Shown: positions 609-62,519 of the stretch, piece by piece
Position numbering within the stretch: position 1 is the first letter of the stretch
How the letters are laid out: each line of letters begins with the position of its first letter
Assembly (NCBI GenBank): GCA_963663165.1
Contig: OY760175.1
Span: 5,504,001-5,568,000, forward strand
Reading direction: 5' to 3'
Source: an uncultured Desulfospira sp.
GTDB lineage: Bacteria; Desulfobacterota; Desulfobacteria; Desulfobacterales; Desulfobacteraceae
DNA length: 64,000 nt
Notes under the pieces: model-generated
What the model was told of the DNA's origin: nothing
Database searches by the model: none
The model's input: only the letters and a program-made list of their open reading frames with translations
Translations under genes and position numbers: made by a program

Positions 609-774
609 GGTGTTTCCATATCCCCTGAATATCCTATGGGAACTGGGTTTAAAATAATAAGCTTTATCTCCAATTATGTAGCGTGTTTGATTATGTTGTG
701 AGTTTTATTCATTTTTATTCAAAAAGATTTTTCAAATCTTTCATTTTATTCGTATAATTCCAAATCATATGCAT

Positions 775-850
775 AGAAAAAGCCCGGAGTAGCCCCTCCG
801 GGCTTTGATTGTGAACTCCCGTCGATAGCCGGAGAAGCCCACACACACAG
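775..850 (-). ncRNA. Candidate small RNA divergent from the RIT leader gene
   Basis: Minus-strand TTGCAG...TGATATAGA promoter-like sequence; ends in hairpin AAAGCCCGGAG-GGGCTA-CTCCGGGCTTTTT; similar layout at 53062-53142. Confidence 0.5.
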
Positions 851-901
851 TTATATTTCTATATCATTTTCCGGTTATCTGCAATACCGGAAAAATCTAA
901 A

Positions 902-1288
902 ATGCTTTTAATTCCAAATACATGCCGATGGTGCCATTTCGTATTTTTTGTTTGCAGGTTCTGCTGGAGAGGGCAGGCCTATTGTTGCAGGGACTGCCGT
1001 AAGGCCGGAATCCTCAGAAACAAAAGAGAAGCACAGCGACGATACCGCCAGACCGAGAAGGGGAAAAGACGGCATCGGGAAGCCGAGAACCGGCGTCGGC
1101 ATCGAAAAAAAATTCAAGAGACAAAAAACATGGATGATACAGCTTCCACAGTGCTGCCTGCTTGGTGTAGGACAATAATATTGTGGATTTTGTTTCAGAT
1201 TCAGGGCCTTCCAATCAAACCATATTGTCAGTTCTGCGGCTCTTCAGGTCAAGTCGTCACACAATTTCCCCGGCGGGGATATGGATAA
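902..1288 (+). CDS. Cys-rich putative zinc-binding protein, homolog of 52563-53033
   Basis: CxxC..CxxCWRGQxYCCxxC, YRQTEKGK and C-terminal CxFCG..QFPRRGYG shared with the second copy. Confidence 0.8.
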   Translation: MLLIPNTCRWCHFVFFVCRFCWRGQAYCCRDCRKAGILRNKREAQRRYRQTEKGKRRHREAENRRRHRKKIQETKNMDDTASTVLPAWCRTIILWILFQIQGLPIKPYCQFCGSSGQVVTQFPRRGYG

Positions 1289-1310
1289 ACGTAAAAACTG
1301 GAGGCGCGGC

Positions 1311-1721
1311 ATGGTAAAAAAAGAAATCCTGAACCCTTCAAGGGTGCGTTGTATCAAAGGAGGATTTAGTTTTATCCCCCATCGGTTTCTTACGGGTGGA
1401 TTTTTGCGAGCATTAAGCCGGGACGAGTTGTTATTGTATTTTTTCCTGGTTCTGGCCGGTGACCGCAACGGATTAAGTTTTTACAGTTATGATAAAATAT
1501 GCACCCTGCTAAAAATGCAACTGGACCAGTACATTGAAGCTCGGGATGGATTGATGGAAAATGATCTGATTGCCTTTGACGGCACCATTTACCAGGTGCT
1601 TTCCTTACCGGCCAACCTTATACAATCTGCTGTACAAAAAAAATCTTCCCTGAACAGCCGTCAACCTGAATCAGTTGGAAAAATTTTGAGCAAACTGGTT
1701 ATGGAGGCCGATCATGGTTGA
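1311..1721 (+). CDS. Small wHTH-like accessory protein, homolog of 52178-52600
   Basis: GGAGG RBS before ATG 1311; FSFIPHRF, LLYFFLVLAGDRNGLSFYSYDKIC, DLIAFDG..QVLSLP shared with the second copy; fold is inferred. Confidence 0.8.
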   Translation: MVKKEILNPSRVRCIKGGFSFIPHRFLTGGFLRALSRDELLLYFFLVLAGDRNGLSFYSYDKICTLLKMQLDQYIEARDGLMENDLIAFDGTIYQVLSLPANLIQSAVQKKSSLNSRQPESVGKILSKLVMEADHG

Positions 1722-2631
1722 GCAGACACCCAAAAGTCCGCCCGGTTATGATCTGGATCAGATCCGCCGGGATTATCTGGACCATATGCTTAAAATCAAG
1801 GAAAGCTCTCCTTCTCAAACCTGTTGCAGGACCAAAATTATCAAAGCGTTTGACAGTTATCTGCAAACATCGGGAGTCTCACTGGTCAATATAAACATAG
1901 GGCATGTTGATGATTTTCTGGCAAGGTTCAATGCCCCATATGCAAAGAGTACCCAGGGGGTATACCGTTCCTGTTTTCGAGGCTTTTTGCACTACCTGTA
2001 TAATGAACGGCATTTGATCCAACAGAATTTAGCCCCGCTTGTGACCGGTCCGCCAATGTTTGCTCAAGTCAAGCCTCCTAAATTTTTAAGACCCGGTGAA
2101 GTCCGTCAGTTATTTGATCATTTGCCCTGTGCAACATCCAAAGAGCTTCGTGTCTATGCACAGGTTCACCTGGCTTATTATCTTGGATTGCGCCCCATTG
2201 AAATCAGCCGCCTTACTCTGGACGATATCTGTTTTGCCAAAGGACTGCTAAACCTGGAAAACACAAAAAATGCAAAGCCCCTTCAATTGCCCATTCCCGA
2301 TGAAGTTATCAAAGCAATCACCGCTTATATCGTTGGAGGCAGGCCTAAAAGTCAGTCTCGCTCTCTTTTTTTAACCAGCCATTGCCCACCTTACAGAGCT
2401 GTAAGTGCCTGGCTCACCAGGCACGATTTAACAAAGGCGTTGCGGGCTGCCGGTCTTCCCGGTACAGGATATTGGCTGCGCCACACCTTTGCACAAAACA
2501 TGCTGGAAGCAGGTGCCGGCATTTTTGAAATCAAAGAAATGATGGGGCATTCCATCATTGATTCCACAAAAGTATATCTAAGTATCCACAAGGAATTGAT
2601 GCGCCGGGTGTTGTTCGATGAAACCGTTTAA
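1714..2631 (+). CDS. Tyrosine recombinase, RIT gene 1
   Basis: LGLRPIE, WLRHTFA, MGHSIIDSTKVY. Confidence 0.9.
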   Translation: MVEQTPKSPPGYDLDQIRRDYLDHMLKIKESSPSQTCCRTKIIKAFDSYLQTSGVSLVNINIGHVDDFLARFNAPYAKSTQGVYRSCFRGFLHYLYNERHLIQQNLAPLVTGPPMFAQVKPPKFLRPGEVRQLFDHLPCATSKELRVYAQVHLAYYLGLRPIEISRLTLDDICFAKGLLNLENTKNAKPLQLPIPDEVIKAITAYIVGGRPKSQSRSLFLTSHCPPYRAVSAWLTRHDLTKALRAAGLPGTGYWLRHTFAQNMLEAGAGIFEIKEMMGHSIIDSTKVYLSIHKELMRRVLFDETV

Positions 2632-3592
2632 AAGCTTTTTGGCCACAGAGATGGAAAACTTTATTGTTTACCGGCAAGGACTGGGATACAGTTGCCATAT
2701 GCTCCGGTGGGCCTTGCTTACCTTTGACGATTTTTTAATGAGGCAGCCGGATCTCTCAGACATTTGGATGCCCCATTTTTATATCACCTTTAAAAATGAG
2801 ATTGGCCTTGAGCCCTCCGGCGTAGCCAGCATTCTAAATGTAGTTCGAGGCTTTTTTGATTATCTGAAACGGCAGCGGATAAATCTTGATAACCCTTTGA
2901 AAGATGTGACCGCTCCGGCCCGGCGCACCTTCATCCCCTTTATATTCTCACCGGAGCAGGTAGAAATGTTACTGGGGGTGGTATGCGGACGGATCCGGCA
3001 AACCCCTATGCGGTTCCTTAAAGATTACAGTGAATATCTGGTGATCCTTCTGCTTGCCCGCTGTGGGCTGAGGATGAATGAACCCTTGCGCCTGAGATTG
3101 AAAAATTACCGGCCGGATGAAAAGACGATTTACATAGAGAAAACCAAGTTCAAAAAGGACCGTCTTATCCCTATTCCAAAATCAACTGCCATGCAGATTG
3201 ACAACTATCTTTCAACCAGGGCCGCTTTAATTGAAAACGATATGAATCCCTACCTGTTCATGGGGATAGGGGAAAACGGCTTGAACGATAACCGTATTCG
3301 CTCTGTTTTTCACGATGCTGTGCGTCAAATCGGGATCCGCCGCCCAAGGAAAATTATCGGCGACACGACCTTTGGGAAGCCCACTCCGCACTGTTTACGG
3401 CACTCTTTTGCCATTAACACCTTGAAGGCAGCCATTGCCCGGAAACAATCACCCCGGAATGTGCTGCCGGTGCTTGCCGGCTATATGGGTCATGTTGAGT
3501 ATAAATACACCATGGAATATTTGAAAGCAGTTGATGCTGAAAGCCGCGACAGCCTGTTCAAATTTACCACCGGCAGAAGGGATGAATCATGA
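2618..3592 (+). CDS. Tyrosine recombinase, RIT gene 2
   Basis: CGLRMNE, KTKFKKDR, HCLRHSFA, LAGYMGH..YTMEY. Confidence 0.92.
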   Translation: MKPFKSFLATEMENFIVYRQGLGYSCHMLRWALLTFDDFLMRQPDLSDIWMPHFYITFKNEIGLEPSGVASILNVVRGFFDYLKRQRINLDNPLKDVTAPARRTFIPFIFSPEQVEMLLGVVCGRIRQTPMRFLKDYSEYLVILLLARCGLRMNEPLRLRLKNYRPDEKTIYIEKTKFKKDRLIPIPKSTAMQIDNYLSTRAALIENDMNPYLFMGIGENGLNDNRIRSVFHDAVRQIGIRRPRKIIGDTTFGKPTPHCLRHSFAINTLKAAIARKQSPRNVLPVLAGYMGHVEYKYTMEYLKAVDAESRDSLFKFTTGRRDES

Positions 3593-4608
3593 ACCTGACC
3601 CGTTGCGTTGTTCAATTTTTTGACCAATACCTGCCTTATGTCAAAGGGTGCCGCCCCAATACGATCAAAAGTTACCGGGATACCATGCGCTTTTTTTTAC
3701 CGTTTGCTGCCGAATACCACAGCGTAAAGGTCAGTTCGCTCAATCTGGAACATATCACGGTAGAATTAATTTTGCAGTTTCTCAATGAGCTTGAATCCAA
3801 ACGGTCCAACACGGCTAAAACCCGGAACCAGCGCCTGGCCGTTTTAAAGTCTTTTGCCAAAATGATCCGTTTTATTTATCCCGAGCAACAAAAACTGACC
3901 AATGCGATCCTTGATATTCCCCGGAAACGAAGCCAACACAAGTTGATCGGATTTTTGTATCCCCAGGAGATCAATCAAATCCTTAATGCGGTCCAACTTA
4001 AAAGAAAGGACGGGTTCCGAGATTATACCCTTCTGTATCTATTATATGATACCGGTGCCAGGGCAACGGAAATCGCTACCCTTGAGATGGATTATTTTGA
4101 TTATGAAAATCAAACTCTGGCGATTCTTGGGAAGGGTAACCGATATCGACAAGTTCAGTTGCTTGGGAAAACAGTAGAGCTTATGCATCAGTATATTGAA
4201 GAACATCGCAATACGCCAATCCATCCGTTTAAAAAAAGGCTGTTCATCAACCAAAGAGGAACAAGCTTGACCCGCCACGGTATCAACCGGATCTGTAAAA
4301 ACTACCTTGAACAGGCTTTACCGGCAAAGCGGACAGCGACCATGCACCCCGTCCATAGCTTCCGTCATTCGTGTGCCGTTCGAATGCTCTCAGAGGATCG
4401 GCCTTTATCTGAAATTAAGAATCGCTTGGGGCATTCTAATGTCAAATCCACAATGGTTTACTTAAAGCTTGATCTAGGCCAGAAGCGACATTTACAAGAG
4501 AACTTCATCCAGTTCACCAAACAGCACCTGAAATCTGATCCGAAAATTGAGGAGTTGATCCAGTGGGAAAACAAGCAAAACGTTCTTGAGTGGCTGGATA
4601 GTCTATAG
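3589..4608 (+). CDS. Tyrosine recombinase, RIT gene 3
   Basis: TGARATE, GKGNRYR, HSFRHS, LGHSNVKSTMVY. Confidence 0.93.
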   Translation: MNLTRCVVQFFDQYLPYVKGCRPNTIKSYRDTMRFFLPFAAEYHSVKVSSLNLEHITVELILQFLNELESKRSNTAKTRNQRLAVLKSFAKMIRFIYPEQQKLTNAILDIPRKRSQHKLIGFLYPQEINQILNAVQLKRKDGFRDYTLLYLLYDTGARATEIATLEMDYFDYENQTLAILGKGNRYRQVQLLGKTVELMHQYIEEHRNTPIHPFKKRLFINQRGTSLTRHGINRICKNYLEQALPAKRTATMHPVHSFRHSCAVRMLSEDRPLSEIKNRLGHSNVKSTMVYLKLDLGQKRHLQENFIQFTKQHLKSDPKIEELIQWENKQNVLEWLDSL

Positions 4609-4801
4609 ATCCTTACAGACTTCATCACCAGCACTCCTCAGGGCAAACTGTAGCTGTTTATTATGTTTAGTGATTTGTTGCAAATTTGTCATACCCTTGA
4701 TAACCAACTGTTTATTTGAACGATTTTGACTTACGGCATTACGGCGCCCAAACCACGGTCAATCAAGGCTTCAGGACCGCTCGCAACATAACTCCAAAAA
4801 A

Positions 4802-4886
4802 TTGGACTTGGGACTTGGGATATGGGACTTGGGGATTGCGGCATCCACGGCCTCCCCAAGTCCCATATCCCATATCCCAAGTCTCA
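4802..4886. repeat. Palindrome of heptamer tandem repeats (GGGACTT/GGGATAT)n...(ATATCCC/AAGTCCC)n
   Basis: Read directly; related copy at 10431-10508. Confidence 0.85.
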
Positions 4887-5094
4887 ACAATATACATTAA
4901 AGAATTTACAAACAATGTCCAAATGCCATGCCGGATTCTAAATCCGGTTAGCCCTGGTAAATATCCGTGACAGCCTTGACGGGAACTGGCGGTTCTGATA
5001 TACGCACTTTCCTGCGGCTTCCACTGTTTGAAATGTTTCAGGGGAACGCATCACCGCATATTGGATGTAAAATGCCGTTAAATCAGGGGTAGCC

Positions 5095-38905: not shown

Positions 38906-39362
38906 CGGTTTCACCTGCCGAATGATCCCGGCGAAGATACGGGGTTTCCACGTTCCACACTATTGCCAATTAGTGGATGACTTAGGCCTGCCCTCTGCAC
39001 CGGCGGCGCAACATCTCACGCGGCAGTTAGGAAACCTGCATCCTGACCGCTCACCTTTTGGTCCAAGCTTACCAGCCTCTTTAGCTTGTTCTCCCTGACG
39101 GTACTTACGGAACATTCAACTACTTTGACCATATCATCCAAACCCTTGCCCTCACCCGGATTGAGGCTTCCAGGAGGGTATCTGCCTCACGGCTTCCACC
39201 CCTTCCACAGTTGCGGAATTCGGTACGTTGTCGGTTGGGCTTCACACCGTTGCCGGATGCACCGACCACCGCATGCCACCTAGGGTACCGGCAGGAGAAT
39301 GCCGGGTTTGGTCAGGACCGACTGGCCCGCCAAACAGCCAATAATGCGACTTCGTGTCGCAC
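38906..39362 (-). mobile_element. Group II intron 5' fragment (copy A, 457 bp)
   Basis: Starts GTGCGACACGAAGTCGC on minus strand; near-identical to 62063-62519. Confidence 0.8.
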
Positions 39363-45205: not shown

Positions 45206-45254
45206 TAAATTCCCATGTATTACCCGATCAATCTAATCATGGGAGTTGGAAAGG

Positions 45255-47897
45255 ATGAACGTTTTGAAACCAGAAAAACAGGCAGCAATCAGCACATTAC
45301 TCAACAAGAATGTAAGCCAGCGAGAAATCAGCAGGAAAACTGGTATTGACCGGAAGACAGTACGCCGATACATACGTCAAAACGCTCCCGGATCAATCCA
45401 AATTCCCCCACCGGAGGCCACATCAAAATCCCCCACCCCGGCCACCGATCAGATTGGAAAGCCCCCACCCCGGCCACCGGCTGATTCAGTGGATTCAGGC
45501 CCCATACCGTTTCACGCAAGATCCGCCTGTGAGCCTCACCGGAAATGGATTGAAGACCAGGTTCGACTGGGCAGAAACGCCATGGCTATCTATCAGGATC
45601 TGGTGGAGCAGTTCAGTTTTGAACATAAGTACAACAGCGTTAAACGCTTTGTCCGCAAGTTAAAGCGCAAAGACCCCAAGCAGTTTGACCGACTGGAGTT
45701 TAGGCCTGGAGAAGAAGCCCAGGTGGATTATGGCCAAGGCGCCTTAACCAAGGGGCCAAATGGCAAATACAAACGTCCCCGGTTATTTGTGATGACTTTG
45801 AAATATTCAGGGCGCTCCTTTCGCAAGGTAGTTTGGAAATCCAGTCAAGAAACCTGGGCCAAGCTTCATGAAGAGGCGTTCCGCTATTTCGGTGGTTGCC
45901 CTGAATACGTGGTTTTAGACAATTTAAAAGAGGGTGTTATCAAGCCGGATATCTATGAGCCTGAGTTGAACCCGGTTTATGCAGCTGTACTGGCTCACTA
46001 CGGTGTAGTAGCAGACCCGGCCAGGGTACGAGATCCCGACCGCAAGGGCACGGTGGAGAATGCCGTTCAGCATACCCAGAATACAGCCCTGAAAGGAAAG
46101 CAGTTTGACACCATTGAAGCCCAGAATGAATGGTTGATGCACTGGGAAGAAAGATGGGCATCAACCCGGATACACGGCCGGAAGAAACGGCAGGTGGAGG
46201 AGATGTTCCAGGAGGAAAAGCCCCATTTGTCCCTCCCGCCGTTGAAAGGGTTTGAATATTTTCGCCAGGAGACCCGCACAGTGTATGATGACGGAACTAT
46301 CCAGGTAGACTCATGCTATTATTCCGCCTTGCCGGCGCCGTTGCACCAGGAGGTCATTGTCCGGATTTATGAAACACAGATTGACATCATCAATCCCCGG
46401 ACCATGGAAAAAATCCGCACCCATATCAAAGGCGACCGGCCCGGAGCGGTTAAGATGGAGGAGGAAGACCGGATCTTCAATCCATCCCGGCAAACAACCA
46501 GCCTTTTGAATAAAGCCGAAAGTATCGGTCCTGCGACGAGACAGCTATGCGAACTGATTTTCAAGGAAAAGGGCCGCCCCGGACAGCGCCGGATGCAGGG
46601 CATTGTCAATCTTGCCCGGAAACATGAGGCCGGCAGTATTGAGGCGGCGGCCAAAACAGCCATAGAGAAGGGATTGCGCAGTTACAAATCCTTTTGCCGG
46701 CTGGTTGAACACCAGAAATCATTTACAGATACCAGGCCACAAGAGGGTATCAGCCAGGAGCATGAACTGATCCGGCCGTCAAATGATTACGGTCAGTTTT
46801 TCGACACGTATGCTGCCGGTAACCAACCCGTTATCTCAAAACAGGACCTGCCAAATGTATGGCAAAGTGCCGACTGGTTGAAGGTGATGGCCGTTTTCGG
46901 CCTTGAGCCCCAAAAGAACAAAAAAGACGAAATCTGGATTCAATCCCCTTTTACCGGAGAACAGAACGCCTCTTTGCATGTGCATCTGGGGCAGAATGTC
47001 TACAAGGACTTCAGCAGCGGCAAAGGCGGTGGAATCCTCAATTTCTGCCAGGATCTGCTGGCCCGCAAAGGGCGGGTGATGAACTGCTACCAAGTGGCGG
47101 AATGGATGATCAGCGAAGGCATTTCAAGCCTGAACAAACCCGTGGCCGTTGAGCCCAAACCAACTCCAGAAAAGAATCAGGCCAACCCGCCGGTGAGTAT
47201 TGATCTGCAACCGTTTCTGGAAATCGTTCATCCGGAACTTGAAAACCGGGGGATTTCCAATAAGGCCTGCCGATACCTGGGATGCGGATATCTGCCCAAG
47301 AGAGCCACAGGCAAAAGTTCTCCATTAAACGGAAGAGTGGTCTTTCAGGTGCGAGGGATCAGTCCGGAACTAACCCCTGTCATTCTAAGCCATGTCGGCC
47401 GTGCATTGACAGACCATCAGGCTGACCTGGATGGCAGATACTGGGGCTTTCCTTTCTCCAAAAAGCTGGAAATCTACAACCAGGACAAACTGCTGCTGGA
47501 CCCAAACGCCAGGGATCAGGTGGAACGATATGGCTTGACCCTTGTGGAGGGCTTTTTTGATGTGGCAGCCCTGGTGTCCGCTGACTGCTTGAATGCAGGT
47601 GCTCTCATGGGCGCACATATGGCAGTGGAACAGGTTCTCCAACTCAGGTTTCTGGCATCACATATGGATATAAACAAGGTCAACCTTTTCCTGGACCGGG
47701 ATGAGGCTGGAAGTAAAGGGACCCGGGCTGCGGCATCACTACTTACGCACCATGGGTTTACTGTAAATGTGTTTGACTGGAACCACCGGTTCATCCGGCC
47801 CGGATGTCCACCTGCAGGGATCAAGCCCGATATAAAAGATCCGGCCGACATGTCTGAAACCCAGCTCAAATACTTAAGAAAACAAGGGATGATTTAA
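45255..47897 (+). CDS. istA: IS21 transposase IstA fused to a C-terminal DnaG-like primase region
   Basis: PGEEAQVDYG, LDNLKEGV, KGTVE; then SPF..E..SL..YKDFSSGKGG, LVEGFFD, FLDRDEAG, KDPAD. Confidence 0.9.
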   Translation: MNVLKPEKQAAISTLLNKNVSQREISRKTGIDRKTVRRYIRQNAPGSIQIPPPEATSKSPTPATDQIGKPPPRPPADSVDSGPIPFHARSACEPHRKWIEDQVRLGRNAMAIYQDLVEQFSFEHKYNSVKRFVRKLKRKDPKQFDRLEFRPGEEAQVDYGQGALTKGPNGKYKRPRLFVMTLKYSGRSFRKVVWKSSQETWAKLHEEAFRYFGGCPEYVVLDNLKEGVIKPDIYEPELNPVYAAVLAHYGVVADPARVRDPDRKGTVENAVQHTQNTALKGKQFDTIEAQNEWLMHWEERWASTRIHGRKKRQVEEMFQEEKPHLSLPPLKGFEYFRQETRTVYDDGTIQVDSCYYSALPAPLHQEVIVRIYETQIDIINPRTMEKIRTHIKGDRPGAVKMEEEDRIFNPSRQTTSLLNKAESIGPATRQLCELIFKEKGRPGQRRMQGIVNLARKHEAGSIEAAAKTAIEKGLRSYKSFCRLVEHQKSFTDTRPQEGISQEHELIRPSNDYGQFFDTYAAGNQPVISKQDLPNVWQSADWLKVMAVFGLEPQKNKKDEIWIQSPFTGEQNASLHVHLGQNVYKDFSSGKGGGILNFCQDLLARKGRVMNCYQVAEWMISEGISSLNKPVAVEPKPTPEKNQANPPVSIDLQPFLEIVHPELENRGISNKACRYLGCGYLPKRATGKSSPLNGRVVFQVRGISPELTPVILSHVGRALTDHQADLDGRYWGFPFSKKLEIYNQDKLLLDPNARDQVERYGLTLVEGFFDVAALVSADCLNAGALMGAHMAVEQVLQLRFLASHMDINKVNLFLDRDEAGSKGTRAAASLLTHHGFTVNVFDWNHRFIRPGCPPAGIKPDIKDPADMSETQLKYLRKQGMI

Positions 47898-48098: not shown

Positions 48099-48449
48099 AT
48101 GATGGCAAAGAATTCTCGTGGAAAACGCCCTTGCTCTATTTGCCGAAAATGGTTTGCTCCTGATGTAAGACAAAAAGGCCGACAGAGAACATGCAGTCCG
48201 GTTTGCCAAAATGAGCTTCATCGAAGGCAATGTGAAAACTGGAACAGGAAAAACAAAGCGGTCTCCATAAATAATTACCTGGCAAAGAAAATTGAAAAGG
48301 CTCAAAACCTTCAAACATCCGGGAAATTGCCTGTTTTGCCGCTGGAAGTTATTGAAACAGAATACGGTATCAAGCCGGCAATTATCGTCGAATATCTGGT
48401 TGCCCAGGTTATCTGTCATACCAAAGAAAAAATTCGAGAATTCCCATAA
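48099..48449 (+). CDS. Small Cys-rich putative zinc-finger protein
   Basis: GGAG RBS; CSICRKWF..QRTCSPVC + basic helix. Confidence 0.7.
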   Translation: MMAKNSRGKRPCSICRKWFAPDVRQKGRQRTCSPVCQNELHRRQCENWNRKNKAVSINNYLAKKIEKAQNLQTSGKLPVLPLEVIETEYGIKPAIIVEYLVAQVICHTKEKIREFP

Positions 48450-49090
48450 ACACCTCTGACTAATCGAATATTGATTTCAAGAGACAAGGTTATGTTAACC
48501 TCTTGTAATATTAAGATATACAAACAGAGTAATCGAATTTTGATTCTAAGAGACATCATGCGCATAAGTTGTTGATAATATATATAGATACAAACAGAGT
48601 AATCAGTATTCCAGTTCAAGAGGCAACTGACAGCCGACCCTGGCCGGTGATATAAAAAGGCATCTGAAATTCTAAAAATAAGGAGATGTCTCATGGCAAA
48701 CAGGTTTTCATCCCGGGAATTATTTGAACTGAGGAACAATATCCCTGTGGATATGCTGATCAGGGATCATTTTGTTATCGCCGGTGATCAAGGTCACCAC
48801 CTTTGCCGGCAACGAACCGTCCCCACCTGTGATATATTGACTTGTCAGGGCTTTTCGCAGGTGTAATATTTGAGGGAAGATACCATTCTCATTTGTATCG
48901 ATAATTTGCAACACAATCAGCTAAAACAAGATATATTAATGGAATAGCGCCATAGCAATCAATTTGGTTGCAGTAAAGCACCTGCGGTTGGAAGAACACG
49001 CTCACCAACAGGCGTCAATCCCGATTTTGGAAGTAAAAAAGCCGGGTTTTATACGAGGACGTATAAAACCCGGCAGATGTGAAGAGATGG

Positions 49091-49879
49091 TTATTGGGGT
49101 ATGGACTGGGGATTAGTAGTGTTCGTTGTGTTGGGACCTTCCGTTCGATAACTGAGTCCGTCCCGGATATTAATGATGTGAACATTGTGCATCAATCGAT
49201 CGATAATGGCATGAGTTACAACCGGATCTCCCAGAGTCGTCCCCCAATCCTCAAGACTGATTGAAGATGTGGCAATAAAGGCGGTATCGTCCTGGCAGAC
49301 GCTGATCAAATCCAGCAGCAGGCTGGGATATTCCGGCTTTGTGCGGATACCGCCCACATTATCTATGATCAGAAGATCAAAACGGCTTAAGCCGGCGACC
49401 ACCTCATCGGTGGATTCGTCAGCCAATGACGTATACAGCATGGCCAGAAGTTTTTGCAGGGAAAAAAATCGAACCTTATAACCCGCACGGCAGGCCTGGT
49501 CGCCAAGGGCTGAGGCAATATGAGTTTTGCCCGTGCCGGTTTTCCCAAAAATAAGCAGCGGCTGCTTTCGATCCACAAAGGATAGCTCCATCAGATCTTT
49601 GAGGTGCTCTACATTCAGGCTTGGCTGGAAGTTAAAATCAAAGTTATCAAAGGTCATGTTTCTGGGGAAATCCGCTGTTTTTAGCCGCTTTTCAAGGGAT
49701 CGGTGCTTTCTTGCCTTCATCTGTACGTCCACGATGTCGGCCAGGAACGCCAAATGACCGGATTGATTTTTCTGCGCCTTGGCAAGGGCCTGCTCCAGAT
49801 ATTGGGCCATATCCTTGAGATAAAGCTTGCGCAGTTTCTTTTTAACCTGGTCGCTTAAGTTTTCATTCATCCTTGCCAT
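49091..49879 (-). CDS. istB: IS21 helper ATPase IstB
   Basis: TFDNFDFNFQP, GKTGTGKTH, LLIIDN, AIIDRLMH, G.SYR. Confidence 0.92.
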   Translation of the reverse strand: MARMNENLSDQVKKKLRKLYLKDMAQYLEQALAKAQKNQSGHLAFLADIVDVQMKARKHRSLEKRLKTADFPRNMTFDNFDFNFQPSLNVEHLKDLMELSFVDRKQPLLIFGKTGTGKTHIASALGDQACRAGYKVRFFSLQKLLAMLYTSLADESTDEVVAGLSRFDLLIIDNVGGIRTKPEYPSLLLDLISVCQDDTAFIATSSISLEDWGTTLGDPVVTHAIIDRLMHNVHIINIRDGLSYRTEGPNTTNTTNPQSIPQ

Positions 49880-51365
49880 CCATTGTTTTTCTGTTAATCA
49901 GGTGGTCATACCTTTGTGGGTTATCCTGCTCCACTGAACAGGATTTCAAATAGCTCCGGGTGTTGTTGGGCAGACCTTTTCCGGCTTTTGTTTTGTTTGA
50001 AGCTTTAATGTTTTTCCCCTGGATGATACGCAGGACGGCATCAGCACTAAATGAGTCAAACCGCGTGGCATGAGCTAATGCCCCTGAGACCACATCCGCA
50101 CCATAGCGGTCGGCATATTTGAGGATACGGCCCATATGGTACCCGGCAGCGCTTTTCCGGGTTTCTTTCAATCCGTTATAATAGACCTGCGCCACCTCAC
50201 CCAATCTCAAAAAGGCATCTTTGAGCAATTGACTCTGGCCTGTCATCTTCCTGTACAGGGCTTCATGTTCAGGCAACACCTGCCTGTCTTCTTGAGTGTA
50301 AACATGCCGGCAATCCATCGTTTCATCACACCATATTTCAATGTGATCACGGAACAAACGGACCTGGACATAACGGCCTATCAGTTCAGGATTGGCAGAG
50401 TATCGTTTTTTGTCGATGGTGACACAAAAATCAACGTTAACAAGTCGACGTACTTCCTTAAAAAATTGATCCGTTTTATTCCATGGCACAGGCTTTAACA
50501 GACTTTTTTCCCTTGCCAGGCGATCCACAGGCCTTTCCCGGGTGGTACCGTGGATACGGACATTGGCTGTGTTCGCCCGCCAGGCATCGGCCTTGTTATT
50601 GAGATCCTCAAGATCAATAAATTCTTTGCCTCTAAGGAAATTGTCTTCAATATACCGGAACGGCCGCTCTACCTTGCCGTGTCGTTCCTTTTTGCCGGGT
50701 AGAAGGATGACGATCTCAAAGTCATACTCCTGGGCAAACCGTTTAAATACCGGATTGATCCAAACGGTTCCGGGGCCCGTGTGCCTGCCCACCGTGGTCA
50801 TATTGTCATAGGTGATTTTGTGGGGAACCGCCCCGATCTCGTCAAACGCCTCTTCATGCAACCGGATCACTGATTCTATAGTTTCATCAAAAAAGTGACG
50901 TATAAATATCCAACGACTGAAGCACAATACAAAAGATCCGGTATGCACCACCACGCGTTGTCCACCCATGTACACACTATGAGGACTCCAGTCCATCTGC
51001 CCCTCATCTCCAGGGGCATGATCAATTGGAGGCCTGGGCACCTTCAAGCCTTTGGGCCGGATTATTCTGATATACTCCTTGAGGATGGAGTATCCGCCCG
51101 TGTACCCCAACAACGTGATCTCTTCCAACACCCGAACCCCGCTGAGATGTTTTTCTTTTACAAGGTAACCGATTTTGGCCTTGTAAGGATCAAGTTTGCT
51201 TTTGCGGGGACTGGTTTGAGGCGCATTAATAACATTGTTGCAGCCCAATGCCCTGCGCACTGCCTTGCGGCTGTGCCCGGTCTGTTTTGCTGTCTGACGG
51301 ATGGATGCTGTGCGCCCAAAGACTTTACGAATACGTTCCTGTTCCTTTTCACTCAACCGGCTCAT
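49863..51365 (-). CDS. istA: IS21 transposase IstA
   Basis: SKLDPYK, GYTGGYSILK, PGDEGQMDW, YDNM, GKVER, HGTTRERP. Confidence 0.93.
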   Translation of the reverse strand: MSRLSEKEQERIRKVFGRTASIRQTAKQTGHSRKAVRRALGCNNVINAPQTSPRKSKLDPYKAKIGYLVKEKHLSGVRVLEEITLLGYTGGYSILKEYIRIIRPKGLKVPRPPIDHAPGDEGQMDWSPHSVYMGGQRVVVHTGSFVLCFSRWIFIRHFFDETIESVIRLHEEAFDEIGAVPHKITYDNMTTVGRHTGPGTVWINPVFKRFAQEYDFEIVILLPGKKERHGKVERPFRYIEDNFLRGKEFIDLEDLNNKADAWRANTANVRIHGTTRERPVDRLAREKSLLKPVPWNKTDQFFKEVRRLVNVDFCVTIDKKRYSANPELIGRYVQVRLFRDHIEIWCDETMDCRHVYTQEDRQVLPEHEALYRKMTGQSQLLKDAFLRLGEVAQVYYNGLKETRKSAAGYHMGRILKYADRYGADVVSGALAHATRFDSFSADAVLRIIQGKNIKASNKTKAGKGLPNNTRSYLKSCSVEQDNPQRYDHLINRKTMDGKDE

Positions 51366-52185
51366 GGTGCCCTCCTATCAACTCATTGAGCCGTTTCATC
51401 CGGGCACCGGCCCGCCCTATAAAGTCTTTAAGGGCGCAGACCTTGGAACCATTGATCGTGCCGCTGCCAATGCAGTTGTTCAGCTTGGACATTTTTGAAA
51501 GAATGGCATCAATAATCAAATAATAATTTTCCTTGTCCCGGCTTACGGACTCCAGCGCTTGCCTGGGAGATTCAAGCAGGTGGCGCCTGGCTCCGGGATC
51601 ACTGGTCTTGCACCACAGGTCCACCAGACGGTTCACCTCCCGGGTTTTAAGGTTGTGTTTTTGAATACAAAGAGAAAAATCGGCCTGGGTTGCAGGCTGC
51701 AACCGCGCCAGTGACGGACCGACCCCGGCAGGGAGCAGCCCAAGTTTGATATCGTGGACAATTTCCGGGGTCAGGCTGCGGATCATGGAAAGCCGTCGGC
51801 AAACCCAGCTTTTATGCCGCTCAAGGAGTATCGCCGCTTCAACCTGATTGAGCCCTTCTATTTCTACAAGTTCCCAGACCACCAGGGCCTCCATGATCGT
51901 GGAAAACCCATCCGGGCGGTTCAGAAGGTAGAGCAATGCCTTGGCTTCTGCAGCACTTTTTTTCAACACAGCCACTTTAAGCGTCTTCATGCCAAGAAGG
52001 CCTGCACAGCGATGCCGCTTGAAACCGTCTATTAAAATATGGCAACCTCCTTGCTCAACCGCAACAACAGCCGTTAATTGGCCATGCTTGACTAATGAAG
52101 CCGCCATCTTTTCCTGGGCACCGGCGTGGACCGGCCGCAGGAATCCCAGACGTAAATCCAATTGGTCCGGACGCAGGTTAATCAT
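51349..52185 (-). CDS. ParB N-terminal domain + HTH protein
   Basis: SLVKHGQLTAV..LIDGFKR, Q.EAA.LLERHKSWVCRRL. Confidence 0.85.
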   Translation of the reverse strand: MINLRPDQLDLRLGFLRPVHAGAQEKMAASLVKHGQLTAVVAVEQGGCHILIDGFKRHRCAGLLGMKTLKVAVLKKSAAEAKALLYLLNRPDGFSTIMEALVVWELVEIEGLNQVEAAILLERHKSWVCRRLSMIRSLTPEIVHDIKLGLLPAGVGPSLARLQPATQADFSLCIQKHNLKTREVNRLVDLWCKTSDPGARRHLLESPRQALESVSRDKENYYLIIDAILSKMSKLNNCIGSGTINGSKVCALKDFIGRAGARMKRLNELIGGHHEPVE

Positions 52186-52600
52186 TTGGACCTCCGGCTA
52201 TATTGAGGCTTTTTTGAAAAATCTCCCCGATTGAGATAAGGCCACTGCCGCCGGTGGGTTGCTTAGGCGCCTTGGACGTCGGTGCTGCAACATTTTTTTT
52301 GGGAAGGGAAAGCACTTGAAACAGTCGGCCGTCAAAGGCTATGAGATCTTTATCAATGAGCCCGTTCCTGGCCTGGATATATTCGTCCAGGCGGATGGCC
52401 GTCAATGAACAGATTTTATCATAGCCGTAATAAGACATTCCCTGACGATCTGCCACCATCACCAGAAAAAGGTACAGCACAAGCTCCTGGTGGTTCAGGC
52501 TGCCCCAATACCCCTGGCGGATAAACCGGTGGCTTATCCATGCGAAACTGCCGTTAATTTTTCTAATTCGATGGTCCTTCAACGGTTCCTTGGTAATCAT
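52178..52600 (-). CDS. Small wHTH-like accessory protein, homolog of 1311-1721
   Basis: GGAGGG RBS; FAWISHRF, LYLFLVMVADRQGMSYYGYDKIC, DLIAFDG..QVLSLP. Confidence 0.82.
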   Translation of the reverse strand: MITKEPLKDHRIRKINGSFAWISHRFIRQGYWGSLNHQELVLYLFLVMVADRQGMSYYGYDKICSLTAIRLDEYIQARNGLIDKDLIAFDGRLFQVLSLPKKNVAAPTSKAPKQPTGGSGLISIGEIFQKSLNIAGGPND

Positions 52601-53033
52601 TTTTACCCTCCTTGGAAATATAATGATGAAAATTGTCGCCTGAATACCGTCTGCCATATCCCCGCCGGGGGAATTGATCTACAATCAGACCTTTTCTTCC
52701 GCAAAAACAGCAGCATGGATGGGAAGACGGAGGCGTTACCCGAAGACTATCATTGGATTTGGAGGGTGTTGAAGTGTCATCATCCACGGTTTTTTGAGAA
52801 TTTCTTAATCTCCGCTCTTTTTCCTGCCGACGATGGGCTAACTTACCTTTTTCAGTTTGTCGATATTTCTTCTGGGCGTTACGGTGAGCTTCTCTTTGAG
52901 CAGTTTCCCGACAGGATTCACAGCAATAAATCTGTCCACGCCAGCAACTGTGGCAGATATAAAAAATGCTGCCGCATCGTTTACACTGGATTTCTTTTAA
53001 TAAAACGATCTCCACATTTTCCGTTCTTGCCAT
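52563..53033 (-). CDS. Cys-rich putative zinc-binding protein, homolog of 902-1288
   Basis: CKRC..CHSCWRGQIYCCESC, YRQTEKGK, CCFCG..DQFPRRGYG. Confidence 0.82.
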   Translation of the reverse strand: MARTENVEIVLLKEIQCKRCGSIFYICHSCWRGQIYCCESCRETAQREAHRNAQKKYRQTEKGKLAHRRQEKERRLRNSQKTVDDDTSTPSKSNDSLRVTPPSSHPCCCFCGRKGLIVDQFPRRGYGRRYSGDNFHHYISKEGKNDYQGTVEGPSN

Positions 53034-53061
53034 AAAACGGAAGCCGTGATTATATGAAGAT

Positions 53062-53142
53062 GTTGGGTAGCTTCCGTATTTTATATGGATGTCTGCTTTT
53101 TGAAGGCTCGAAGCGGCCTACTTCGAGCCTTCCTTATTTTTC
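53062..53142 (+). ncRNA. Candidate small RNA divergent from the IS21-ParB leader gene
   Basis: TTGCCA (53027)-N17-TTATAT promoter-like; hairpin GAAGGCTCGAAG-CGGCCTA-CTTCGAGCCTTC then T-rich tail. Confidence 0.5.
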
Positions 53143-53592
53143 AAATCCATCCAAGAAACAAAACCAAATTCAAAGAAAAAAAGGAAGAAAATATATTTTT
53201 AAAATATGGGATGAAGAAGAGACAAAGTAAAAAGGATGGAGGCTTTGTTACCGGCTAAAGGGGTGGCCTGCTTCATCGCCATAGGTGGGGACGGTTACGA
53301 CCGGCGGTAACAATCATTTACAGATTCCATCCAAGATCAGGGATGGCTACTTTCGTTTTCTATGCCCTTTGTGCAATGAATTTCAAACCGCTGTAAATCC
53401 AGCCACGAACCTGGCCAGGTGCTTCAGATGCGAAAAGAATTTTAATACCATCGACCTTGTCATGAAAATCAAGGGTTATGGCTTCCGGGATAGTGTTTTG
53501 TTTTTGAAACAAATAAATACGGCCCCCCAGGTTCAGACCGCAAAATTGACGGCTCTTGCTGCTATGGTCGGCAGACCCATGCCGGCAGGGCA

Positions 53593-54156
53593 GTGAATAT
53601 GGAACGGTTGCTTGAGCTTGAAACCCTGATTGGTCGCAACCAGGAATGTTTTTACAAAATCGGCCGGGCCTTGAAGGAAATTCGAGATAACCGTTTGTAC
53701 AAACAGGCTTTGTTTGAGTCATTTGAAACATATACCAGGCAGCGATGGGATATGGGCAAGGCTTATGCCTACCGCCTGATCAGAGCCTATGAAGTGATCT
53801 ACAATTTGTCGCCAATTGGCGACAAGCTACCTGCCAACGAATCCCAGGTCCGTCCCCTGACTCAAATGGACTCCATAGAACAACGCCGTATCTGGAGGGA
53901 GATTATAAACAGCGGCATGGAACTGACCGCACAAAATATCAAAAAATTTATTGAGGCCCGGAAAACGGCTCCGGCAAGTAGACCGGATCTGACAAATAAA
54001 ATTTCAAATGAATACATGGCTGTTGTAAAGGCAATGCTTGAGCAGGTCCGTGTGGCACAACATGATCATTGGCAGCAGACCTCCCGCCAAGCCGCATTGT
54101 TGTGGCACCGGGTCATATACGAAAAGATCATATCAAAGGGGGCAGATAATGGATGA
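53593..54156 (+). CDS. Helical accessory protein of element X
   Basis: IGRALKEIRD.RLY..FE.Y...W......YRLI, LPANESQVRPL; overlaps neighbours. Confidence 0.75.
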   Translation: MNMERLLELETLIGRNQECFYKIGRALKEIRDNRLYKQALFESFETYTRQRWDMGKAYAYRLIRAYEVIYNLSPIGDKLPANESQVRPLTQMDSIEQRRIWREIINSGMELTAQNIKKFIEARKTAPASRPDLTNKISNEYMAVVKAMLEQVRVAQHDHWQQTSRQAALLWHRVIYEKIISKGADNG

Positions 54157-55813
54157 CCTAAGCATTGACGACCGCTTCCACTTACTGCTGCACAAAAAAA
54201 TCATGAACAAAACTGGATCTGCCAAGAGAAGATCCAAAAAATATTACAAGGACCAGTACAAAAAAAACGGGATTATCCCGCCTCCCCTTTTACTGGTTGA
54301 AAAAGGAATTATGGATGGCCGCAAGTGCAGCGGGCGGCCCAGAGTCATAGACGAACAAACCCAAAGGCGGTTTATTGAAATGGTCAAGGCGTCATGCGAC
54401 CCCTCATCCCAGGGGTTCATTTTTATCACCCGGAGAGCCAGGACCATTAAAAATTACCACTGCTGGCTTGAGGAAGAGCTGGGGAAAAAAATCAGTCTCC
54501 CTGCACTTTGGCGATGCGCCAAAAGGGAGAATCTCAAATTTTACCTGGAAAAAGAGGACGATCAGGAGCCGTCACCGGCACGTTATACCTTCAAATCGGT
54601 TACGGTGTTTACCTTGATCCAGGTTGACGGTTGCAAGTTCCAATATTTAAGAATCAGAGATGAACATGGCAACTGGCAGAAACCACGGGTAATTGAAATA
54701 TTCGATACCGGCTCCAGGAAACTGTTTATTATGGAATTCTATTTTACCGAAAGCAATCTGAATTCTGTGGATCTTTTTACCCGTTTTTTGTTGTGCACAC
54801 CTTTTCCTTTGATAACAATCGGTATCAGGCCTGATCGGGCAAAGGGATTTTTAAATCTCAAGCGTCCCATTAATGCGATTAACCTTGCGCATTCTACGCC
54901 GGGCGGTTTTTATTTGGCACCGGATTTTTCAAGGGCGCATTCCCCCAAAGATAAGGCGCATCTGGAATCTTCACACCGAAGCCTGCATAATTTTGAAATA
55001 CGAATTATCAAAGCGTTTGAGAGCAGGATTGTGAAAACCGTTACCGAATATGACTTCAAGCGGGGAAGAAAGGAAAAAGTTACTGTAACCCTTCTTGATA
55101 TCACCCTTGATGAATTGAGGAACAGCACTGTGCTCAGCCAATACCGCAACGAACACAATCATACACAACATTATTTTACCGAAGACGGCGTAGTCAGTGC
55201 CTGGGTGCCGGCACAAAAGTTTGATGATTTTTTATCAAATCAGACAGACACCCTGAATTTTACCCCGGAGCAGGTTCAGGAATATATGAAATACGGTTAC
55301 AGGAAAATCAAAGCCACGGTATCCAAAAATAGAACCATCCGCCATGACAAAAGGGATTATTATGTGACCAGTGGTGCAGACCGGTTCAGCAGGCATAAAA
55401 GTACACCGGTAAAAATATCCAGATACAGGGACAAACTTTTTATCTTTGAGCCCAGTGAAGACGGCATCCTGATAGGCGAAGCCATTGCAAAAAAGCCGTT
55501 TGACAGCCCGCCGTCTCCAGCGACCGCTCCTGTACCCGACGAACTCGACACCATTATCGCTCTTTTGGAAAAGCACAATATGGCCGTTGACCGGCCTATT
55601 TTAATCGAAGTTTACCATAAAGGCCTCACCTTGTCCCTGGCGGAGCAAGTGCTTCACCATAATCAATCAAGGTACGCAGATTACATGAAAAAAATGAACC
55701 AGCCTGAGGAACGTAAAAATCAAGCCTTATTTAATGCTTTTATGCTTGATTGCCAAAAATCGTTAAATACGAATCAGGTGGCCACTTATGCATCCCACGG
55801 AGATATGCCATGA
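54149..55813 (+). CDS. Divergent DDE integrase/transposase of element X
   Basis: SGRPR, IQVDGC, EIFDTGSR, IRPD, PKDKAHLESSH. Confidence 0.75.
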   Translation: MDDLSIDDRFHLLLHKKIMNKTGSAKRRSKKYYKDQYKKNGIIPPPLLLVEKGIMDGRKCSGRPRVIDEQTQRRFIEMVKASCDPSSQGFIFITRRARTIKNYHCWLEEELGKKISLPALWRCAKRENLKFYLEKEDDQEPSPARYTFKSVTVFTLIQVDGCKFQYLRIRDEHGNWQKPRVIEIFDTGSRKLFIMEFYFTESNLNSVDLFTRFLLCTPFPLITIGIRPDRAKGFLNLKRPINAINLAHSTPGGFYLAPDFSRAHSPKDKAHLESSHRSLHNFEIRIIKAFESRIVKTVTEYDFKRGRKEKVTVTLLDITLDELRNSTVLSQYRNEHNHTQHYFTEDGVVSAWVPAQKFDDFLSNQTDTLNFTPEQVQEYMKYGYRKIKATVSKNRTIRHDKRDYYVTSGADRFSRHKSTPVKISRYRDKLFIFEPSEDGILIGEAIAKKPFDSPPSPATAPVPDELDTIIALLEKHNMAVDRPILIEVYHKGLTLSLAEQVLHHNQSRYADYMKKMNQPEERKNQALFNAFMLDCQKSLNTNQVATYASHGDMP

Positions 55814-56457
55814 AAGAGGATTTTATCAGTGATAAACGAAGGGTCTCATACCTGTCTGCTACTTATAACAGGATATACAGGGGTCAAAGCGTACTCATTG
55901 AAGGGGATTTTGGCGCAGGCAAAACTCGTTTTTTAAGACTGCTGCGGCCTAAAAAGCTCCATGCCGTATGGGTCGAGTCTCTGTTCAACATCCATGAAAC
56001 CCTGGCATCCATACTTAAAGAACTGAATTATGAGACCTCCGCCACTTACCGCCGGACTCCCCAGTACCTGAAAACGATCTGCAACCTATCCAATTGTTTT
56101 ATCATCATAGATGAAGCCAACGACCTGGACTCCCGGGTTTGGCCATATCTCAAACGAATTATTGATGCCGGTGTCCCCATCGTATTTGCAGGGCTCCCCA
56201 AGGTCAGAACCTATTTGAGCCGGAATCATCCCGATATACTCAGCCGGCTCAAAACTCTGATTTTATATCCCATAGAGGTCGAGGACTTCATTGAAAAATA
56301 CAAAGATATCCAGCATGAAGCAGTTGAACAGATATATATGGCCGTCAAAGGCGACATGAGAAAATTTAAAGAAATCTGTACAGACTGTCAGGACAGGGCA
56401 AAGGAGTTGAACCACAACTTTGTTGATATCAATCTTGCCCTGGAATTTATATCCTGA
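55810..56457 (+). CDS. AAA ATPase (TnsC/MuB-like); last 5 codons displaced to 60667-60684
   Basis: GDFGAGKT, IIIDEA, IVFAG, ILSR; original end ..EFISDLPPQ* reconstructs across the insertion. Confidence 0.85.
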   Translation: MKEDFISDKRRVSYLSATYNRIYRGQSVLIEGDFGAGKTRFLRLLRPKKLHAVWVESLFNIHETLASILKELNYETSATYRRTPQYLKTICNLSNCFIIIDEANDLDSRVWPYLKRIIDAGVPIVFAGLPKVRTYLSRNHPDILSRLKTLILYPIEVEDFIEKYKDIQHEAVEQIYMAVKGDMRKFKEICTDCQDRAKELNHNFVDINLALEFIS

Positions 56458-61884: not shown

Positions 61885-62519
61885 CTCACAAAGAAACACC
61901 TGCCCGGGTGTGTCTGTAGTCACACCCGCCGGACGTCAGCTCCCTTTCGGGCCGGGTAATGTCGATAGTCAATAGATCCATCTCAATCCGTATCCACTTC
62001 GTTACAAAATGGCATTTGCTTCTTCCTGCATCTTACTCCCGCACCTCCATCAATGTGCCTTGCGGTTTCACCTGCCGAATGATCCCGGCGAAGATACGGG
62101 GTTTCCACGTTCCACACTATTGCCGATTAGTGGATGACTTAGGCCTGCCCTCTGCACCGGCGGCGCAACATCTCACGCGGCAGTTAGGAAACCTGCAGCC
62201 TGACCGCTCACCTTTTGGTCCAAGCTTACCAGCCTCTTTAGCTTGTTCTCCCTGACGGTACTTACGGAACATTCAATTAATTTGACCATATCATCCAAAC
62301 CCTTGCCCTCACCCGGATTGAGGCTTCCAGGAGGGTATCCGCCTCACGGCTTCCACCCCTTCCGCAGCTGCGGAATTCGGTACGTTGTCGGTTGGGCTTC
62401 ACACCGTTGCCGGATGCACCGGTAACTGCATGCCACCTAGGGTACCGGCAGGAGAATGCCGGGTTTGGTCAGGACCGACTGGCCCGCCAAACAGCCAATA
62501 ATGCGACCTCGTGTCGCAC
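61885..62519 (-). mobile_element. Group II intron 5' region (copy B), interrupted by the outer IS21
   Basis: Starts GTGCGACACGAGGTCGC at 62519; duplicate of copy A plus further structured sequence. Confidence 0.82.

What the first reader, a model, noticed from the sequence alone, without database searches (positions are those of the whole stretch)
775..901. Conserved divergent sRNA/leader switch upstream of that module in both elements
Seen: both leaders have, on the opposite strand, TTGC..TAA..CGGAA..TGAT.TA promoter-like sequence, then TGGG..GCTT..CG, then a terminator-like hairpin whose stems differ completely but whose loops match (GGGGCTAC at ~788-795 vs GCGGCCTAC at ~53113-53121). A segment of each RNA (TTCTCCGGCTAT; GCTTCCGTATTTT) is complementary to sequence at the leader gene start (ATACCGGAAAAA 884-895; AGAACGGAAAAT in early codons), and alternative pairings exist within the mRNA leader. 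Inference: an ~80-nt antisense or protein-bound RNA that belongs to the module.
Basis: partly seen in the sequence, partly recalled or inferred. Interest (0 to 1): 0.8.

Follow-up and report, generated by a model that had tools for sequence, protein, structure and literature searches.

The report
Antisense RNA switch on mobile elements
Several unrelated kinds of jumping genes in sulfate-reducing bacteria begin with the same uncatalogued control unit, a predicted 75-base RNA made from the opposite strand that probably flips the message of the first gene into a shape ribosomes cannot enter, which would give these elements a plasmid-like brake on their own spread, although no transcript has yet been seen.

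Summary
The feature is real and conserved. Both leaders lie inside active mobile elements: a three-recombinase RIT element (8 copies) and an IS21 element (5 copies); a third, unrelated element (6 copies) has it too. 147 of 148 distinct leaders of the Cys-rich first gene carry it. Opposite strand: a promoter of the host's own sigma70 type (T at -12, 17 bp from the -35 box, in 77 of 79), a looser 5' hairpin and a terminator hairpin whose wobbles (17 vs 2), U-tract and tree-controlled co-changes point to that strand; predicted RNA about 74 nt. Sense strand: segment b pairs either with upstream a or with the ribosome-site segment c. Best reading: the RNA binds its own leader, removes a, and b closes the ribosome site, limiting the transposition operon in trans. 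No Rfam family; works like repABC ctRNA in mechanism and IS10 RNA-OUT in purpose. Proteobacterial IS21 elements with a distant homolog show the same layout in different sequence. No RNA data exist here. The scan noted the gene cassette before on another copy; its listing does not mention the RNA.

The parts
674..4899 (+). Element A: RIT-type element (Cys-rich gene, wHTH gene, three tyrosine recombinases); ends approximate
   Evidence: 8 copies with shared ends in G000; Pfam phage integrase x3
731..758 (+). Candidate sense promoter of A (TTCAAA-16-TATAAT), tentative
   Evidence: 10 of 12 consensus match; position not conserved across homologs
773..850 (-). Predicted antisense RNA of A (about 75-78 nt): 5' hairpin, then terminator hairpin and U-tract; start inferred from the promoter
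   Evidence: model R1 67 bits at 773-850 (by construction)
779..806 (-). Terminator hairpin H1 of A (core pairs 782-789 with 796-803, loop 790-795)
824..836 (+). Segment a (anti-anti-ribosome-site) of the A leader; covered by the antisense RNA
856..884 (-). Antisense sigma70-type promoter of A: -35 TTGCAG 884-879, 17 bp, -10 TAGAAA 861-856
867..879 (+). Segment b (anti-ribosome-site), pairs with a or c; overlaps the antisense promoter spacer
886..895 (+). Segment c, ribosome-binding region (GGAGG in most homologs; weaker here)
902..1288 (+). Cys-rich, Arg-rich first gene of A (no Pfam or NCBIfam family at cut-off)
1281..1721 (+). wHTH-like gene of A
   Evidence: weak HTH_36
48773..53312 (-). 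Element B: IS21-family element (Cys-rich, wHTH, ParB-like, IstA, IstB), 7-bp target duplication
   Evidence: 5 copies; NCBIfam IstA/IstB above cut-off; ends
52563..53033 (-). Cys-rich first gene of B; true start probably downstream of c (about 53015-53009)
53016..53025 (-). Segment c of B
53027..53056 (+). Antisense promoter of B: -35 TTGCCA 53027-53032, TGn, -10 TTATAT 53050-53055 (17 bp) or TATATG (18 bp)
53032..53044 (-). Segment b of B
53061..53139 (+). Predicted antisense RNA of B (about 78 nt)
53070..53082 (-). Segment a of B
53102..53132 (+). Terminator hairpin H1 of B
   Evidence: terminator scan on this strand

Best explanation
A cis-encoded antisense RNA controls a two-state mRNA leader at the head of the element's operon. 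Shown from sequence: a promoter-shaped site and a terminator-shaped hairpin delimit about 74 nt on the opposite strand; on the sense strand b can pair with a or with c. Inferred: while the mRNA is being made, a:b forms first and leaves the ribosome site c open; the antisense RNA, fully complementary to the leader from H1 to a, captures a and lets b close c (the state the full leader also drifts to unaided). Translation of the Cys-rich gene, and probably of the overlapping downstream transposition genes, is shut. Because every copy makes the RNA and it can act in trans on identical copies, repression would rise with copy number; variable loops would keep co-resident elements largely independent.
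For: Promoter: T at -12 in 77 of 79 at 17 bp (5-45 of 79 at spacers 14-16 and 18-20), C at -36 in 76 of 79; when A-11 is lost (19 rows) TGn appears in 18 and T-7 in 16. Host tRNA upstream regions have TTG[AC]nn-17-TA in 31 of 41 (3.2 in shuffles), T-7 in only 8 of 28, matching; Desulfovibrio sigma70 sites have a short -10 and strong -35 (PMC4045070, passages). H1: 6 of 9 pairs with double changes, 17 G-U on the antisense strand against 2 A-C; at least 5 U after the stem in 65 of 79 antisense, 19 of 79 sense; tree-controlled co-changes 7 vs 1.0. b:c: 43 sense G-U vs 2 antisense in five core columns. a:b: outer columns 470 WC pairs vs 370 +/- 9.5 in partner shuffles, co-changes 54 vs 38.4. Folding: a:b in 67 of 79 nascent leaders; b:c in 49 of 79 full leaders, 75 of 79 with the antisense-covered part masked; median energy gap 1.8 kcal/mol. 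Two homologs outside the model (L226, L227) keep the geometry with changed a, b and c sequences. R1 finds 19 full matches in G000, all at Cys-rich genes, next best other hit 22.5 bits.
Against: No RNA holder was listed, so nothing is shown transcribed. The -35 TTG was my anchor, so its invariance and part of the matrix score are circular. a:b shows no strand preference in wobbles. b:c co-change is weak overall (25 vs 18.8, z 1.6; one pair significant) and H1 has only two informative pairs. The 5' hairpin is loose (81-84% paired) and RNAalifold did not find it. Full leaders favour b:c even without the RNA, so the ON state must be kinetic; for B masking changes little (P(b:c) 0.52 to 0.54). No positionally conserved sense promoter upstream of a. 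A canonical start 3-12 nt behind c exists in only 45 of 79. Loci were the best-scoring 80 of 226 and 80 of 469 matches, so biased to close kin.
Confidence: 0.62

Rival explanations
1. The antisense RNA exists but represses by another route: transcription interference from convergent promoters, duplex-triggered decay or attenuation at H1; b:c is a constitutive brake as in IS200.
For: b:c already dominates 49 of 79 full leaders; IS200 uses antisense RNA and leader structure independently (PMC4513863, abstract and passages); H1 has at least 5 U on the sense side in 19 of 79.
Against: Does not explain selection on the long a:b helix or its retention in L226, L227. b:c is followed by no U-tract in the alignment.
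Confidence: 0.17
2. No antisense RNA: a purely cis leader, with H1 as an insulating terminator and a:b/b:c switched by the Cys-rich, Arg-rich protein or by transcription speed; or a:b is a DNA dyad bound by an element protein.
For: No transcript; a:b wobbles show no strand bias; the protein has long basic helices.
Against: H1 wobbles and U-tract favour the opposite strand; the fixed T at -12 with compensating TGn has no role in a sense fold; the same promoter-hairpin layout recurs in proteobacterial relatives.
Confidence: 0.1
3. The RNA is a protein-bound partner (guide or antitoxin-like ligand of the Cys-rich protein), or masks c directly in trans.
For: RNA and Cys-rich gene always travel together; the RNA holds a b-like stretch able to pair with c.
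Against: a and c do not co-change (z 0.3); the c duplex is weaker than the cognate one; loops are only partly conserved; no fold match assigns RNA binding.
Confidence: 0.08
4. Generic terminators and chance complementarity.
For: The H1 stem type is common: 4 of 5 weak R1 hits at 32-37 bits were ordinary terminators.
Against: Conserved position, promoter spacing, three-way pairing and covariation in 79 leaders of 56.5% mean identity.
Confidence: 0.03

Closest known systems
repABC ctRNA (RepE/incA) with the repB-repC leader (PMC6090056 and PMC10194956, passages read)
   Same: Short counter-transcript with terminator stem, encoded upstream of the controlled gene; its binding refolds the mRNA between an open and a closed state of the ribosome site; acts in trans as an incompatibility factor.
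   Different: Here on transposable elements, upstream of a Cys-rich gene, no RepA/RepB/RepC; about 74 nt with two hairpins rather than 50-59 nt; closed state is an anti-SD helix, not a terminator; no Rfam ctRNA match.
IS10 RNA-OUT and IS200 art200 (PMC4513863, abstract and passages read)
   Same: Element-encoded antisense RNA to the 5' region of the element's mRNA; copy-number-dependent repression in trans is the likely purpose.
   Different: RNA-OUT pairs over the ribosome site of the transposase mRNA; this RNA stops about 35 nt short of c and would act through b; the target is an accessory gene heading an operon; the unit is shared by unrelated element families.
Phage P22 sar RNA (Rfam RF00262)
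   Same: Two-hairpin antisense RNA of similar size; best antisense-strand antisense-family hit (842-775).
   Different: 23.3 bits against a gathering score of 43; no hit at B; shape resemblance only.
P1 c4 / P4 CI leader RNAs (recalled; also named in earlier notes)
   Same: A leader segment complementary both upstream and to the ribosome-site region.
   Different: Those RNAs come from the sense strand by processing; here promoter and terminator signals are on the opposite strand; no Rfam C4 hit.

Membership tests
repABC ctRNA | Lies between repB and repC of a repABC replicon | tested here: not met
   Neighbours are element end and Cys-rich gene in RIT, IS21 and D-type elements
repABC ctRNA | Own promoter and terminator stem on the opposite strand | tested here: met
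   By sequence only
repABC ctRNA | Target mRNA has two alternative folds, one hiding or removing the ribosome site | tested here: met
   By prediction and covariation
repABC ctRNA | Sequence match to an Rfam ctRNA family | tested here: not met
IS-encoded antisense regulators (RNA-OUT, art200) | Encoded inside the element, antisense to the 5' region of its mRNA | tested here: met
   Inside the ends of A, B and D
IS-encoded antisense regulators (RNA-OUT, art200) | Pairs at or next to the transposase ribosome site | tested here: not met
   Predicted RNA ends about 35 nt upstream of c, and the first gene is not the transposase
IS-encoded antisense regulators (RNA-OUT, art200) | Represses expression in trans, rising with copy number | not testable with these tools
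   Needs reporters
Cis-antisense RNAs with U-turn (YUNR) recognition loops | YUNR in an exposed loop | tested here: inconclusive
   H1 loop 8 of 79 antisense, 3 sense; 5' loop 55 of 79 against 42.5 +/- 4.1 in shuffles
Rfam sar RNA | Reaches the gathering score | tested here: not met
   23.3 of 43 bits
P1 c4 / P4 CI | Regulator processed from the sense leader; Rfam C4 match | tested here: not met
   No C4 hit; signals on the opposite strand. Processing itself not testable.
Any small RNA gene | Transcript detected | not testable with these tools
   No RNA holder listed

The most novel reading that the evidence does not exclude
The antisense RNA, the switch and the Cys-rich gene form one portable copy-control cassette, old enough to be shared between Desulfobacterota and Proteobacteria, that has been plugged in front of at least three unrelated transposition machines (tyrosine-recombinase trio, IS21 DDE, a further DDE/AAA element) and gives them plasmid-style, loop-specific incompatibility groups; the Cys-rich protein is the rate-limiting activator and may feed back on the leader.
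Probability: 0.3. Interest if true: 0.86.

Novelty: new variant of a known kind. Interest (0 to 1): 0.7.

Why it matters
It would be an uncatalogued RNA family and a testable control mechanism for RIT elements and for large IS21 elements, for which my searches found no described antisense control. Plasmid-style indirect refolding has here moved onto transposons, and one regulatory unit is swapped between unrelated recombination chemistries. It also points to an often unannotated Cys-rich gene as the controlled step of transposition, and offers natural sets of orthogonal RNA switches for anaerobes.

Tried and rejected
Rfam at gathering score: nothing at the leaders in the window or in 19 related loci (one group II intron elsewhere); E-value mode gave only sub-threshold hits. 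Generic promoter scans missed the antisense promoter because they need T-7. RNAalifold recovered only H1. Cys-rich protein: no family at cut-off, no solved relative, Atlas clusters unnamed, fold searches insignificant (best Z 3.1 to YacG). wHTH as a replication initiator under ctRNA control was dropped because RNA and wHTH do not co-occur strictly. Viral contigs gave one short doubtful match. R1 does not match the proteobacterial leaders (4 loci given). Literature: no paper describing this RNA (open-access library only; ISfinder and subscription journals not searched; no supplements read, and motif-survey supplements could list it). Earlier-findings look-ups by sequence were blank.

Full report
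Context. The window is part of genome G000. The gene at 902-1288 and its neighbour at 1281-1721 head an element with three tyrosine recombinases that occurs 8 times with shared ends; this is the RIT layout (family name recalled; RIT papers seen as search listing only). The second leader heads an IS21 element of 4540 bp, 5 copies. A search with the B protein found a third element, D, 6 copies, 4.28 kb, with the Cys-rich gene followed by a CHC2-like gene, an unknown gene, a large transposase-like gene and an ATPase (names from the related window genes). A fourth element, C, has the wHTH gene and recombinases but another first gene. Both leaders lie 100-300 bp inside the left end.

Collection. 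Loci came from 151 genomes of the family (30 loci), the best 80 of 226 genome matches and the best 80 of 469 metagenome matches. Of 193 sequences, 191 had the Cys anchor, 182 had enough upstream DNA and 148 were distinct. One (L024, a weak hit) lacks the leader. Three more failed my parsing but match the model at 39-84 bits, so 147 of 148 carry it. The remaining 144 were reduced to 79 at 88% identity (mean 56.5%, A vs B 48%); 78 went into alignments A2 and A3. Contexts: RIT 38, IS21 19, D-type 7, truncated or unknown 15.

Antisense promoter. Anchoring on the -35 TTG makes that part circular. Not forced: C at -36 in 76 of 79 and T at -12 in 77 of 79 at 17 bp, between columns of low information; the two exceptions have TA at 18 bp. 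58 rows have TA (T-7 in 12); 19 have TT, of which 18 have TGn and 16 T-7, though these are mostly one clade. In the host, 31 of 41 tRNA upstream regions show TTG[AC]nn-17-TA against 3.2 in shuffles, and T-7 in 8 of 28. With a matrix from those sites all 79 antisense sites exceed the 99th background percentile and 65 the 99.9th (partly circular). Desulfovibrio sigma70 sites are reported to have a short -10 and strong -35 (PMC4045070, passages).

Predicted RNA. Length 67-86 nt, median 74. H1 is 99% paired, with double changes in 6 of 10 pairs; whole-structure covariation exceeded all 500 shuffles and the slid controls, which does not correct for kinship. In the nine core pairs the antisense strand has 17 G-U, 2 A-C and 1 G-G. 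The U-tract is stronger antisense. On a tree from the coding region, H1 co-changes were 7 against 1.0 expected, from two informative pairs. The 5' hairpin is looser, more stable than shuffles on both strands, and absent from the RNAalifold consensus.

Leader switch. b pairs with c on the sense strand (43 sense G-U against 2 in five core columns) and with a (outer columns 470 vs 370 +/- 9.5). Tree-controlled co-change: a:b 54 vs 38.4 (z 2.9), b:c 25 vs 18.8 (z 1.6), a with c 17 vs 15.9. c is GGAGG in 41 of 79; a canonical start follows at 3-12 nt in 45 of 79, mostly TTG, and many others have ATT or ATC near 7 nt, so the start codon is uncertain. Nascent leaders fold a:b in 67 of 79; full leaders fold b:c in 49 and a:b in 25; masking the antisense-covered part gives b:c in 75. 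For A the two states are -42.1 and -42.2 kcal/mol; for B masking changes little.

Specificity and reach. Model R1 gives 19 full matches in G000, exactly A, B and D, none at C. In 151 genomes of the class, the 7 outside hits above 45 bits all precede the Cys-rich gene; of 5 hits at 32-37 bits, one looks like a homolog cut by a contig end and four are ordinary terminators. In 301 genomes of the phylum, 7 had the protein; 5 of the 6 new loci tested have the RNA, the sixth gene lacks its N-terminal part. L226 and L227 were not in the model: a, b and c are rewritten yet still pair both ways, and the promoter keeps 17 bp and TA and gains TGn where the -35 box weakens. Cognate RNA-leader duplexes are -152 to -169 kcal/mol against -50 to -93 across A, B, D, a crude measure.

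Distant clade. Homologs at about 31% identity sit, mostly unannotated, directly before istA on proteobacterial plasmids. R1 does not match the four loci given. In 14 leaders aligned (some near-duplicates) there is a long hairpin with a conserved loop and, in 8 of 14 by pattern, an antisense site TCGAC[AG]-17-TGC-nATA[CA]T, delimiting two-hairpin RNAs mostly of 79-100 nt. The antisense loop often reads UUGGCG, a motif named in the title of a ColIb-P9 paper (reference lists of PMC10724649 and PMC4374534 only), where it is on the target RNA. Homology of these RNAs to ours is not shown, and their switch was only inspected by eye.

Comparison. The mechanism resembles repABC ctRNA control, where the RNA refolds the leader of repC (PMC6090056, PMC10194956, passages); the purpose resembles IS10 RNA-OUT, whose effect grows with copy number (PMC4513863, passages). 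It is a member of neither. No Rfam family and no paper describing it were found (23, 49, 69, 71, 101), within an open-access library and without supplements. What the Cys-rich protein does is open; 843 clusters match its profile at E 1e-10.

Verdict. Real, conserved and uncatalogued; RNA gene likely (about 0.85), indirect switch the best mechanism (about 0.6); all function is inferred, no transcript seen.

Noticed in passing
window 48690-48772 and 53313-56457: Element B has inserted, with a 7-bp duplication, into the CHC2-like gene of a D-related element (77% identical to D over 3.1 kb).
   Followed up: partly
window about 48100-48640; G000 3984935-3985646: D-related elements lacking this cassette carry a different Cys-rich, basic first gene followed by about three imperfect direct repeats, possibly a protein-operated alternative to the RNA switch.
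   Followed up: partly
G000 element C, e.g. 2717909 +: RIT element with the same wHTH gene but another Cys-containing first gene and a divergent gene upstream; no R1 match.
   Followed up: partly
L241-L255, about 250-330 nt upstream of the Cys-rich gene: A second conserved hairpin (loop region GCCCGTAGGGC) and a TGn-TAGAAA sense promoter-like site precede the antisense unit in proteobacterial IS21 elements; no Rfam match.
   Followed up: no
window 39148-39306 and 62305-62463: Two group II intron D1-D4 fragments (Rfam RF02012).
   Followed up: no
window 45246-47897: One long ORF joining IS21-like transposase domains to CHC2 zinc finger and Toprim primase domains.
   Followed up: no
G000 tRNA upstream regions: Host sigma70 promoters mostly lack T at -7 (8 of 28), so standard scans miss them.
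   Followed up: partly
G000 copies of A near 2833835, 4198136, 6121029: Several A copies share flanking sequence beyond the element ends, suggesting a preferred repeated target.
   Followed up: no
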